From assembly GCF_054482525.1 (NCBI RefSeq), contig NZ_CM137006.1: a DNA stretch of 64,000 nt; one strand, written 5' to 3'. Below are positions 58,460-61,525 of the stretch, piece by piece (position 1 is the stretch's first letter; every line of letters begins with the position of its first letter). The position numbers and the translations under genes were made by a program. Under the pieces are notes generated by a model, which was not told the origin of the DNA, did no database searches, and worked only from the letters and a program-made list of their open reading frames with translations.

Positions 58460-59770
58460 ATGTTTGATTCGACTTTAAATCCGTTATGGCAGCGTTACAT
58501 CCTCGCCGTTCAGGAGGAGGTAAAACCGGCGCTGGGGTGTACTGAACCGATTTCACTGGCGCTGGCGGCGGCGGTTGCTGCGGCAGAACTGGAAGGTCCG
58601 GTTGAACGTGTAGAAGCCTGGGTTTCGCCAAATCTGATGAAGAACGGTCTGGGCGTCACCGTTCCCGGCACGGGAATGGTGGGGCTGCCGATTGCGGCGG
58701 CGCTTGGGGCGTTAGGTGGAAATGCTAACGCCGGGCTGGAAGTGCTGAAAGACGCAACTGCGCAGGCAATTGCCGATGCCAAAGCACTGCTGGCGGCGGG
58801 GAAAGTCTCAGTTAAGATCCAGGAACCTTGCGATGAAATCCTCTTCTCACGCGCCAAAGTCTGGAACGGTGAGAAGTGGGCGTGTGTCACCATCGTCGGC
58901 GGGCATACCAACATTGTGCATATTGAGACGCACAATGGCGTGGTGTTTACCCAGCAGGCGTGTGTGACAGAGGGCGAGCAAGAGTCGCCGCTGACGGTGC
59001 TTTCCAGGACGACGCTGGCTGAGATCCTGAAGTTCGTCAATGAAGTCCCGTTTGCGGCGATCCGCTTTATTCTCGATTCTGCGAAGTTAAATTGCGCGTT
59101 ATCGCAGGAAGGTTTGAGTGGTAACTGGGGGCTGCATATTGGCGCGACGCTGGAGAAACAGTGTGCACGCGGTTTGCTGGCGAAAGATCTCTCTTCATCC
59201 ATTGTGATTCGTACCAGCGCGGCATCCGATGCGCGTATGGGCGGCGCTACGCTTCCGGCGATGAGTAATTCAGGCTCGGGTAACCAGGGGATCACTGCAA
59301 CAATGCCTGTGGTGGTGGTAGCAGAACACTTCGGGGCCGATGATGAACGGCTGGCGCGAGCGCTGATGCTTTCGCATTTGAGCGCGATTTACATCCATAA
59401 CCAGTTACCGCGTTTGTCTGCGCTTTGTGCCGCAACGACCGCAGCAATGGGGGCCGCCGCCGGGATGGCATGGCTGGTGGATGGGCGTTATGAAACCATC
59501 TCGATGGCGATCAGCAGTATGATCGGCGATGTCAGCGGCATGATTTGCGATGGTGCGTCGAACAGCTGCGCGATGAAGGTTTCGACCAGTGCTTCGGCTG
59601 CGTGGAAAGCGGTGTTAATGGCGCTGGATGATACCGCCGTGACCGGCAATGAAGGGATTGTGGCTCATGATGTTGAGCAGTCGATTGCCAACCTGTGTGC
59701 GTTAGCAAGCCATTCGATGCAGCAAACGGATCGGCAGATTATCGAGATTATGGCGAGCAAGGCCAGATAA
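58460..59770 (+). CDS. cyuA: L-cysteine desulfidase CyuA (YhaM)
   Basis: 436-aa [41 protein letters not shown]…. Confidence 0.9.
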
Positions 59771-59791
59771 ACGCCAGGTTTTGGGTATCGT

Positions 59792-59880
59792 GCCGGATGC
59801 GATGCTGGCGCATCTTATCCGGCCTACGAATTGCACAATTTGTTGATGTTGTTGGGTTTTGTAGGCCGGATAAGGCGTTT
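59792..59880. repeat. REP elements; the distal REP is interrupted by the IS element and resumes at 61314
   Basis: gccggatgcgatgctggcgcatcttatccggcctac … gtaggccggataaggcgttt | IS | gtttacgccgcatccggc. Confidence 0.8.
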
Positions 59881-60635
<755 letters not shown>

Positions 60636-60739
60636 ATCAGCATACTTGTCCTTAGCCTTCTGCAGTGACAGCTGGTAGTACAGCGTGCTTCTGGCCAGCC
60701 CTGCAGCCTTTAACAGGTCAGACTGGCAGTGTCCGCACC

Positions 60740-61261
60740 TCAGGCTCCGGATGACTTTCGTTTTTTCTCCAGCTCCTGGCGCTTTTTTTCCAGGAGATGC
60801 TCCTGCATGGCTTTCAGATATGCATTTTCTGCGCGAAGATAACGCAGCTCATTCTTCATCTCTTCCGGCGTCATGTTTGCCTCGTTTTCATGGGTATCAT
60901 CAGAACGGGTCATGCTTTTCTCCTTCCTGCGCCTGATAAAGGCCTCATTACCAGATTTGCGGTAGCCTTTTATCCAGTTTTTAACCGTGTTGTGGCTGGG
61001 AATGTTAAACCGGGCAGCTACCCGGGGTAGAGACTCAGAATGCCCGAGAGCATAAAGAACCACGCAAAGTTTATCTTCAGGAGAATAGCTACGCTTGTGT
61101 CTGCAATCCAGTGCCCGAGGACCGTGAAGAAGAAAAAGATTAATCCAGTGTGAGAGGCTGGTGTGAGAAAGTTGAAAGAGTTTTGCCGTAGAAATGATGC
61201 CTGCATGACCAGCCAGGTAGTGATTTACAGCGGCAAGTTTTACTTCAAATGAATGTTTCAT
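60740..61261 (-). CDS. insJ: IS3-family transposase OrfA (HTH), IS150 InsJ-like
   Basis: MKHSFEVKLAAVNHYLAGHAGIISTAKLFQLSHTSLSHWINLF… 173 aa. Confidence 0.88.
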   Translation of the reverse strand: MKHSFEVKLAAVNHYLAGHAGIISTAKLFQLSHTSLSHWINLFLLHGPRALDCRHKRSYSPEDKLCVVLYALGHSESLPRVAARFNIPSHNTVKNWIKGYRKSGNEAFIRRRKEKSMTRSDDTHENEANMTPEEMKNELRYLRAENAYLKAMQEHLLEKKRQELEKKRKSSGA

Positions 61262-61338
61262 AAACTGCACCTTCAGATGTCAGATTATGTCCAACATTTG
61301 GGGTGCAGTTCAGTTTACGCCGCATCCGGCACCTGTCT

Positions 61339-61503
61339 TTACGCGGTAGCTTCATCCTCGGCTAAACGCGTTTCAGCATCCGCGACGATGGCTTCCAGCT
61401 CGCTCAACATCTCTTCATAGCCAAAACTATTGGCGGTGCGAGCAGGTTCTTTCGCCACCACGGGCTTCACTGGCTGACGCTTTTTGGCCGATTTTTTACT
61501 CAT
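61339..61503 (-). CDS. yhaL: Small protein YhaL (54 aa)
   Basis: Manual translation of minus strand: MSKKSAKKRQPVKPVVAKEPARTANSFGYEEMLSELEAIVADAETRLAEDEATA; below track size cut-off. Confidence 0.6.
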   Translation of the reverse strand: MSKKSAKKRQPVKPVVAKEPARTANSFGYEEMLSELEAIVADAETRLAEDEATA

Positions 61504-61525
61504 CATCATCTCCCTGTAAAAACAA

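What the first reader, a model, noticed from the sequence alone, without database searches (positions are those of the whole stretch)
60740..60770. orfA/orfB overlap with an A6 slippery run: programmed -1 frameshift site of the IS
On the minus strand the orfA C-terminus reads …ctg gag aaa aaa cga aag tca tcc gga gcc tga, while the orfB frame is open across the same region without an ATG (…KTKVIRSLRCGHCQSDLLKAAGLARSTLYYQL…). That is the IS3-family arrangement in which the transposase is an OrfAB fusion made by -1 slippage on an A-run (60761..60766). The element therefore looks intact and potentially active.
Basis: partly seen in the sequence, partly recalled or inferred. Interest (0 to 1): 0.3.

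Follow-up and report, generated by a model that had tools for sequence, protein, structure and literature searches.

The report
IS1397 transposase frameshift site, mislocated

Summary
On the minus strand orfA (61261..60740) ends ...gag aaa aaa cga aag tca tcc gga gcc tga. The -1 frame is open from 60848 to 59913 with no start codon before 60635. An A6 run lies at 60766..60761.

The element is IS1397 (IS3 family, IS150 group), not IS150. It is 1432 bp (59881..61312) and 100% identical to RefSeq copies annotated "IS1397 family transposase, programmed frameshift". It sits in the loop of a REP palindromic unit between yhaL and cyuA, with an AAAC duplication. The inverted repeats and the DDE triad are intact.

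The A6 run is not a canonical slippery heptamer in the orfA frame (G_AAA_AAA). The only in-frame canonical heptamer is A_AAA_AAG at 60788..60782. An AGGAG lies 11 nt upstream of it. A 38-48 nt hairpin follows it (z = -3.25), and the A6 run forms part of that hairpin's apical loop.

Sharma et al. 2014 (PMC4066793, Tables S4 and S8) list exactly this signal for IS1397. 123 of 124 public fusion proteins I could classify place the junction there.

IS1397 has lost the IS150-type heptamer and stem that 60 of 63 relatives keep 24 nt further upstream.

Verdict: already known, low interest. A minor contribution from the A6 run cannot be excluded.

The parts
59881..61312 (-). IS1397, complete 1432-bp copy (IS3 family, IS150 group)
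   Evidence: 100% identity over 1432 bp to many E. coli copies annotated 'IS3-like element IS1397 family transposase'. NCBIfam transpos_IS3 387 bits.
61288..61312 (-). Left terminal inverted repeat (TGAACTGCACCCCAAATGTTGGACA)
   Evidence: 21 of 25 positions match the reverse complement of the right end; termini are TG...CA.
59881..59905 (-). Right terminal inverted repeat
61313..61316 (-). Target-site duplication AAAC, left copy, inside the interrupted REP palindromic unit (left half 61330..61313)
   Evidence: A reconstructed empty site with a single AAAC matches other E. coli genomes at 100% over 296 nt between yhaL and cyuA.
59877..59880 (-). Target-site duplication AAAC, right copy (right half of the palindromic unit 59880..59861)
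60740..61261 (-). orfA (173 aa, HTH domains, Lys/Glu-rich C-terminus), stop TGA at 60742..60740
   Evidence: The exact protein is on at least 1000 public contigs.
59913..60848 (-). orfB reading frame (-1 relative to orfA), open without a start codon until GTG at 60635; encodes the DDE catalytic domain
   Evidence: Pfam rve, rve_2 and rve_3.
60782..60788 (-). Most likely -1 frameshift site: A_AAA_AAG in the orfA frame (GAA AAA AAG); A7 run is 60789..60783
   Evidence: Only canonical in-frame heptamer in the overlap. Listed as cluster A_AAA_AAG_5 = IS1397 in PMC4066793 Tables S4 and S8. Junction of 123 of 124 classified public fusion proteins. Invariant in four IS1397 lineages.
60800..60804 (-). 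Shine-Dalgarno-like AGGAG, 11 nt upstream of the heptamer
   Evidence: SD scored present in 100% of IS1397 sequences in PMC4066793 Table S8.
60735..60782 (-). Predicted stimulatory hairpin (48 nt; 38-nt core 60778..60741 starting 3 nt after the heptamer)
   Evidence: dG -17.6 kcal/mol, z -3.25, 1 of 200 shuffles as stable. The 38-nt core with spacer 3 and a 4-bp first stem matches Table S8 of PMC4066793. Retained in 98% and 97.4% lineages.
60761..60766 (-).
   Evidence: It is A5G in two IS1397 lineages. It aligns to non-run 'gacaaagcg' in most relatives.
60809..60815 (-). Position homologous to the IS150-type heptamer (here G AAA GCC, not slippery): the ancestral site has been lost
   Evidence: Gap-free, codon-for-codon alignment with 34 relatives and comparison with IS150.
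60378..60380 (-). Catalytic D295 (WVTDIT)
60198..60200 (-). Catalytic D355 (HSDQG)
   Evidence: 60 residues after D295.
60090..60092 (-). Catalytic E391 (MENFF), with K398 (60071..60069) 7 residues later
   Evidence: 36 residues after D355, the IS3-family DD(35)E-K spacing.

Best explanation
The window carries an intact IS1397. Ribosomes translating orfA reach GAA AAA AAG (60790..60782). With the Lys tRNAs on AAA and AAG, a fraction slip back one base on A_AAA_AAG (60788..60782). They then continue in the orfB frame and make a 449-aa OrfAB transposase (...EHLLEKK-APGAGEKTKVIRSL...). Ribosomes that do not slip terminate at TGA 60742..60740 and make the 173-aa OrfA. Slippage is probably enhanced by an AGGAG 11 nt upstream pairing with 16S rRNA, as in dnaX, and by a hairpin starting 3 nt downstream (60778..60741, extendable to 60782..60735). 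The A-richness there is explained by dual coding of the Lys-rich OrfA tail (EKKRK) and the OrfB motif (EKTKVI). Shown here: the sequence anatomy, the homology, the conservation and the fold statistics. Inferred: that slippage occurs at this heptamer, and that the SD-like sequence and hairpin stimulate it.
For: The only in-frame X_XXY_YYZ heptamer in the 109-nt overlap is A_AAA_AAG. A_AA.A_AA.G is among the three most efficient heptamers in E. coli, and A6G/A7 account for 72% of the heptamer-bearing IS1/IS3-family elements surveyed; the A_AA.A tetramer is the weakest of six active tetramers (PMC4066793). The same paper lists IS1397 as cluster A_AAA_AAG_5, with -1 frameshifting 'safely inferred', SD in 100% and hairpin in 100% of 59 sequences, hairpin 38 nt, spacer 3, first stem 4 bp. 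My independent scan found the same hairpin. Hairpin z is -3.25; it is -3.59 and -2.75 in two diverged lineages, whose four substitutions in the 48 nt are all compatible with it (U.G becomes U-A, one re-pairing, one in the loop, one in an internal loop). Site 1 and its flanks are identical in all four lineages read, while the A6 run is A5G in two of them. 123 of 124 classified public fusion proteins have the junction at the A7G; one has it at the A6. 60 of 63 relatives, and IS150, use an in-frame A_AAA_AAR heptamer followed by a stem-loop with covariation (96.3% paired, 5 of 11 pairs compensatory, 0 of 500 shuffles).
Against: No experiment on IS1397 frameshifting was available to me. The Clement 1999 and Wilde 2001/2003 papers are not held, and Sharma et al. 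call it inferred. The hairpin begins unusually close to the heptamer (spacer 3, or 0 for the extended form), so part of it would already be unwound when the slip occurs. One lineage (L090) has G574A, which breaks a pair in the extended lower stem. An in-frame A_AAA_AAR heptamer arises in 4-14% of codon shuffles. The A6 run (A_AAA, or A_AAG in two lineages) could still support some slippage by ribosomes that passed site 1. Public annotation junctions are placed by homology pipelines, not by experiment.
Confidence: 0.78

Rival explanations
1. One reading: the main -1 slip occurs on the A6 run 60766..60761 (GAG AAA AAA CGA), giving OrfAB with the junction ...QELEKK-TKVIRSL....
For: The run lies in the overlap, 19 nt before the orfA stop, and A-site re-pairing from AAA to AAA is cognate. 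One public protein (MCW7009108.1) is annotated with this junction. GGAG and AGGAG lie just upstream. Stable-looking structures can be drawn 4-9 nt downstream (-24 and -39 kcal/mol). In two lineages the run becomes A_AAG, the best tetramer (PMC4066793).
Against: It is not an X_XXY_YYZ heptamer in frame, because the P-site tRNA would have to re-pair on GAA. A_AA.A is the weakest active tetramer, only about four-fold above background even with the strong IS3 pseudoknot. The downstream structures are not better than shuffles (z -0.78 and -0.49), and they drop to z +1.23 and +0.12 in the 98% lineage. The run is not conserved as a run within IS1397 lineages or in most relatives. Ribosomes meet the far shiftier A_AAA_AAG first. 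A GGAG immediately adjacent to a slip site is expected, from established work on SD spacing (Larsen et al. 1994, recalled from memory), to disfavour -1 shifts.
Confidence: 0.1
2. Both A runs are used in tandem. Most shifts occur at A_AAA_AAG and a smaller number at the A6 run, giving two OrfAB isoforms that differ in a 7-residue linker (APGAGEK versus RQELEKK).
For: Both runs lie in the overlap and both lead into the same orfB frame. Two A6-or-longer runs in such an overlap occur in only 2.3% of codon shuffles. Lys tRNA(UUU) is shifty even on imperfect motifs such as C_AA.G when a stimulator is present (PMC4066793).
Against: There is no significant stimulator downstream of the second run. The A-richness there is accounted for by conserved Lys-rich coding in both frames in relatives that have no run.
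Confidence: 0.15
3. The frame change is made by RNA polymerase slippage on the A7 run (one extra A in a fraction of transcripts) rather than by the ribosome. The resulting protein would be identical to the site-1 product.
For: Some IS3-family members use transcriptional realignment on long A or T runs (PMC6211511 title; PMC4066793 notes that A7 runs are prone to it). Contiguous 448-aa variants with altered run lengths exist in assemblies.
Against: A7 is shorter than the runs of about 9 or more that are usually needed for efficient slippage by E. coli RNA polymerase (established knowledge). The motif is in exactly the phase required for tandem tRNA slippage, and it has ribosome-directed stimulators (an SD-like sequence and a hairpin).
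Confidence: 0.05

Closest known systems
IS1397 (IS3 family, IS150 group; Bachellier 1997, Clement 1999; frameshift signal catalogued by Sharma et al. 2014 as cluster A_AAA_AAG_5)
   Same: 100% identical over 1432 bp to annotated copies. It is inserted in the loop of a REP palindromic unit with a 4-bp duplication, the published target preference (PMC1525189). The heptamer, SD-like sequence and 38-nt hairpin with spacer 3 are as tabulated.
   Different: Nothing substantive. This is one more copy, at the yhaL/cyuA REP, a site that is empty in most complete E. coli genomes.
IS150
   Same: Same family and group, the same OrfA/OrfB -1 design, the same type of heptamer, and a DDE transposase.
   Different: Only 42.6% protein identity. 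The IS150 heptamer sits at the conserved '...YL-KK-L' codons, followed 6 nt later by the stem GCCTTAGCTC/GAGCTAAGGC, as in 60 of 63 relatives. In IS1397 those codons read ctg aaa gcc and the stem arms cannot pair. Its heptamer and a new, smaller hairpin lie 24 nt further downstream.
dnaX and IS911 -1 frameshift signals
   Same: A_AAA_AAG combined with both an upstream SD-like element and a downstream hairpin. The AGGAG spacing of 11 nt resembles the 10 nt of dnaX (established knowledge). IS911 is the only other IS cluster scored SD-positive and structure-positive in PMC4066793 Table S4.
   Different: The sequences are unrelated. The IS1397 hairpin is short, starts only 3 nt after the motif, and has not been tested experimentally.

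Membership tests
IS3 family insertion sequence | Two consecutive ORFs, orfB in the -1 frame overlapping the end of orfA, with no start codon for orfB in the overlap | tested here: met
   orfA is 61261..60740. The -1 frame is open 60848..59913, with its first start-type codon at 60635.
IS3 family insertion sequence | DDE catalytic domain with DD(35)E spacing and K/R 7 residues after E | tested here: met
   D295, D355, E391 and K398; spacings 60, 36 and 7. Pfam rve 75.7 bits. NCBIfam transpos_IS3 387 bits against cut-off 160.
IS3 family insertion sequence | Imperfect terminal inverted repeats ending 5'-TG...CA-3' and a 3-4 bp target duplication | tested here: met
   21 of 25 IR positions match, with TG/CA ends. 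AAAC is duplicated, and the empty site is found at 100% identity in other genomes.
IS3 family insertion sequence | In-frame slippery motif in the overlap | tested here: met
   A_AAA_AAG at 60788..60782.
IS3 family insertion sequence | OrfAB actually produced by -1 frameshifting and required for transposition | not testable with these tools
   Needs a reporter assay, mass spectrometry or a transposition assay. Sharma et al. class it as 'safely inferred'.
IS1397 | Near-identity in nucleotide sequence and length to IS1397 | tested here: met
   1432 bp, 100% identical to RefSeq copies named IS1397 family. The original reference entry itself could not be fetched.
IS1397 | Insertion into the loop of a REP/BIME palindromic unit | tested here: met
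   Flanks read gccggatgcggcgtAAAC | IS | AAACgccttatccggcctac. The target preference is described in PMC1525189.
IS150 (as the identity of this element) | Close sequence identity to IS150 | tested here: not met
   42.6% protein identity to annotated IS150 copies.
IS150-type frameshift cassette | A_AAA_AAR at the conserved YL-KK codons, then a 6-nt spacer and the stem GCCTTAG.../...CTAAGGC | tested here: not met
   IS1397 reads ctg aaa gcc there, and the homologous arm positions cannot pair. The cassette is supported by covariation in relatives.

The most novel reading that the evidence does not exclude
IS1397 discarded the IS150-type recoding cassette kept by nearly all its relatives. It rebuilt a compact one 24 nt downstream: a new A_AAA_AAG, a new SD-like element and a new short hairpin that reuses the old 3'-arm region. 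This left two tandem slip-prone A runs that may yield two OrfAB isoforms and may tune transposase output differently from IS150.
Probability: 0.2. Interest if true: 0.3.

Novelty: already known. Interest (0 to 1): 0.1.

Why it matters
It matters little beyond correct annotation. The element, its family, its REP-specific insertion and its A_AAA_AAG/SD/hairpin frameshift signal are all published or annotated. The useful outcome is a correction: the element is IS1397, not IS150, and the slip site is 60788..60782, not 60766..60761. There is also a small evolutionary note that IS1397 moved its recoding signal relative to the IS150 group. An intact, multi-copy IS1397 is relevant to strain typing and to REP/BIME dynamics in E. 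coli.

Tried and rejected
1. I looked for the primary IS1397 papers (PMC94167, PMC95333, PMC169884, PMID 9055066). None is held.

2. I suspected a G/C polymorphism at the last base of the heptamer, because most RefSeq fusions read KKPPGAG and not KKAPGAG. I rejected this. The DNA is identical, and the two proteins differ only in where the annotation join is placed, by 1 nt.

3. I looked for intermediate relatives (60-95% identity) to trace the relocation of the signal. None was found. Outside E. coli the best matches are about 57% identical. P0173 and P0203 are degenerate IS1397 fragments.

4. I tested the large structures downstream of the A6 run (103 nt and 64 nt). They are not better than shuffles and are not kept in a 98% lineage.

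5. I searched for pseudoknot pairing between the hairpin loop and the next 135 nt. No complement of 5 bp or more exists.

6. The 171-nt region folded as a whole is not unusual (z -1.18). Only the local hairpin is.

Full report
**Observation.**
- orfA runs from ATG 61261 to TGA 60742..60740 (173 aa). It ends ...ctg gag aaa aaa cga aag tca tcc gga gcc tga.
- The A6 run is at 60766..60761.
- The orfB frame is the -1 frame. It reads ...GEKTKVIRSLRCGHCQSDLLKAAGLARSTLYYQL... and is open from 60848 to the stop at 59915..59913.
- The first ATG/GTG/TTG in that frame is the GTG at 60635.
No stop interrupts orfB, and the catalytic residues are present: D295 (60380..60378), D355 (60200..60198), E391 (60092..60090) and K398, with spacings 60, 36 and 7.

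**Identity of the element.** The element is not IS150.
- The 1432-bp stretch 59881..61312 is 100% identical to many chromosomal E. coli copies annotated [quoted passage not shown]. 3485 of 5426 complete genomes have a match and 1707 hold a near-full-length copy, with up to 40 matching places per genome.
- IS150 is only 42.6% identical in protein.
- Pfam finds HTH domains plus rve, rve_2 and rve_3. NCBIfam transpos_IS3 scores 387 bits against a cut-off of 160.
- The ends are 25-bp imperfect inverted repeats (21 of 25 matching, TG...CA).
- The flanks read gccggatgcggcgtAAAC | IS | AAACgccttatccggcctac. This is an insertion into the loop of a REP palindromic unit with a 4-bp duplication.
- A reconstructed empty site matches other genomes at 100% over 296 nt between yhaL and cyuA. 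REP targeting is the published hallmark of IS1397 (PMC1525189).
- The claim "intact and potentially active" is supported as far as sequence can show.

**Where the slip occurs.** The overlap contains two A runs.
This is not an X_XXY_YYZ heptamer, because the P-site tRNA would have to re-pair on GAA. It amounts to the A_AA.A tetramer.
- Sixteen bases upstream, GAA AAA AAG gives A_AAA_AAG (60788..60782). It is the only canonical in-frame heptamer in the overlap.
- Sharma et al. 2014 (PMC4066793) measured all motifs in E. coli. A_AA.A_AA.G is among the three best heptamers. A_AA.A is the weakest of six active tetramers. A6G or A7 heptamers account for 72% of the heptamer-bearing elements in their IS1/IS3-family survey.

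**Flanking signals of the upstream heptamer.**
- An AGGAG (60804..60800) lies 11 nt upstream of the heptamer, a dnaX-like spacing (established knowledge).
- Immediately downstream, the minimum-free-energy fold gives a hairpin: GCGCCAGG..CUGGAGA[loop]UC.UCCGG..CCU..GGUGC (60782..60735). Its dG is -17.6 kcal/mol with z = -3.25, and only 1 of 200 shuffles is as stable.
- Its 38-nt core starts 3 nt after the motif with a 4-bp first stem.
- No loop-to-downstream pseudoknot pairing of 5 bp or more exists.

**Structures downstream of the A6 run.** Larger structures can be drawn 4-9 nt after the A6 run: 64 nt at -24 kcal/mol and 103 nt at -39 kcal/mol. They are no better than shuffled sequence (z -0.49 and -0.78). 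In a 98%-identical IS1397 lineage they fall to z +0.12 and +1.23.

**Variation within IS1397.** I read four lineages: the window copy, L086/L087 (29 differences), L089 (36 differences) and L090.
- The A7G and its flanks are identical in all four.
- The A6 run is A5G in two of them.
- Four substitutions fall in the 48-nt hairpin of L086 and L089. All are compatible with it. G565A turns a U.G into a U-A pair. A536U re-pairs with A573. A552G is in the loop. G568A is in an internal loop. The fold is kept at -16.9 kcal/mol with z -3.59 and -2.75.
- G568A breaks a pair in the 103-nt alternative structure.
- L090 has G574A, which removes one pair of the extended lower stem but leaves the 38-nt core untouched.

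**Relatives.** I fetched 80 loci encoding relatives of 38-57% identity (best segment), from Bacillaceae, Pseudomonas, Halomonas and others.
- 63 loci show the orfA/orfB -1 layout, and 60 of these have an in-frame A_AAA_AAG or A_AAA_AAA.
- In 34 relatives with uniform spacing, the heptamer sits at the conserved OrfA codons ...ENAYL-KK-L. Six nt later comes an 11-bp stem (GCCTTAGTTCA / TGAACTAAGGC) enclosing 44 nt. The stem is 96.3% paired, 5 of 11 pairs show compensatory changes, and 0 of 500 shuffles reach the observed values.
- IS150 has the same cassette.
- IS1397 aligns with these relatives without gaps, codon for codon across this region. At the ancestral site it reads ctg aaa gcc (60817..60809), and the homologous arm positions cannot pair.
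- Its A_AAA_AAG aligns with the relatives' "gaa aaa gaa". Its A6 run aligns with "gac aaa gcg". The A-richness at the A6 run therefore reflects Lys-rich coding in both frames (OrfA ...K.KRK, OrfB ...DKAKVI) and not a conserved run.
- IS1397 has thus moved its recoding signal about 24 nt downstream and shrunk the stimulatory hairpin.

**What is already on record.**
- Sharma et al. 2014, Tables S4 and S8, list cluster A_AAA_AAG_5 as "Fam IS3/grpIS150/IS1397 [true]", with -1 frameshifting "safely inferred". SD is present in 100% and the hairpin in 100% of 59 sequences. The hairpin is 38 nt, the spacer 3 nt and the first stem 4 bp. This is the signal I derived independently.
- Among public proteins, the exact fusion at the A7G (...LLEKKAPGAGEK...) is on 71 contigs. 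The fusion at the A6 (...QELEKKTK...) is in one record.
- Of 124 fusion proteins classified, 123 have the junction at the A7G.
- The common "KKPPGAG" form is encoded by identical DNA. It differs only because the annotation join is placed one base later.

**Statistics.** Composition makes A runs likely here. An A6 or longer run arises in 37% of codon shuffles of the overlap, an in-frame A_AAA_AAR heptamer in 14%, and two runs in 2.3%. The argument therefore rests on motif phase, the stimulators, conservation and the published analysis, and not on run length.

**Mechanism.** The most likely mechanism (about 0.78) is tandem slippage of Lys tRNAs on A_AAA_AAG at 60788..60782. It would be helped by the upstream AGGAG and the downstream hairpin, and would yield the 449-aa OrfAB. 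OrfA comes from ribosomes that do not shift.
- A minor contribution from the A6 run cannot be excluded.
- Transcriptional slippage on the A7 run is unlikely, and it would give the same protein.
- None of this has been tested experimentally for IS1397, as far as I could access the literature.

**Verdict.** All of it is already known. Interest is low.

Noticed in passing
59861..59880 and 61313..61330 (interrupted REP unit); second REP unit 59790..59827: The IS splits a REP palindromic unit of a BIME between yhaL (61339..61509, minus strand) and cyuA/yhaM (58460..59770, plus strand). The site is empty in most complete E. coli genomes: 4974 of 5426 hold a place covering at least 80% of the reconstructed empty site.
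   Followed up: yes
L084 and L085 (same cysE-trmL site as L082); equivalent to window 60789..60783 and 60766..60761: Some assemblies carry IS1397 with A6 instead of A7 at the first run and A5 instead of A6 at the second, and are otherwise identical. This gives one continuous 448-aa OrfA-OrfB reading frame (proteins P0057, P0059, P0099, P0129; fragments P0173, P0203). It could be a naturally fused transposase or homopolymer assembly errors.
   Followed up: partly
window 60781..60784; L082/L083: RefSeq/PGAP fusion proteins for identical DNA come in two forms, ...EKKAPGAG... and the commoner ...EKKPPGAG.... The -1 join is placed one base apart, so the commoner form carries a Pro that canonical slippage on A_AAA_AAG would not produce.
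   Followed up: yes
window 60809..60817, compared with alignments A1/A2 and L088: IS1397 has lost the IS150-type heptamer and the long-range stem that are conserved (with covariation) in its relatives and in IS150. It carries a new heptamer and a shorter hairpin 24 nt downstream.
   Followed up: yes
L007-L016 and other loci: Outside E. coli, the closest relatives of the IS1397 transposase (about 57% identity) are in Bacillaceae and related Firmicutes and in Pseudomonas. No intermediate enterobacterial relatives were found, which hints at horizontal acquisition.
   Followed up: no
window 60745..60806, minus strand: Four GGAG/AGGAG motifs occur within about 60 nt (caGGAGcat, ccaGGAGct, ctGGAGaaa, ccGGAGcc), spanning both A runs. 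They form the arms of the predicted hairpins and may also act as internal SD-like pause sites.
   Followed up: partly
L086, L087, L089, L090 compared with window 60735..60782: Diverged IS1397 lineages (97.4-98% identity) concentrate 3-4 substitutions in the 48-nt hairpin region. G565A is shared by all the non-window lineages, so the window's U.G pair may be the derived state.
   Followed up: partly
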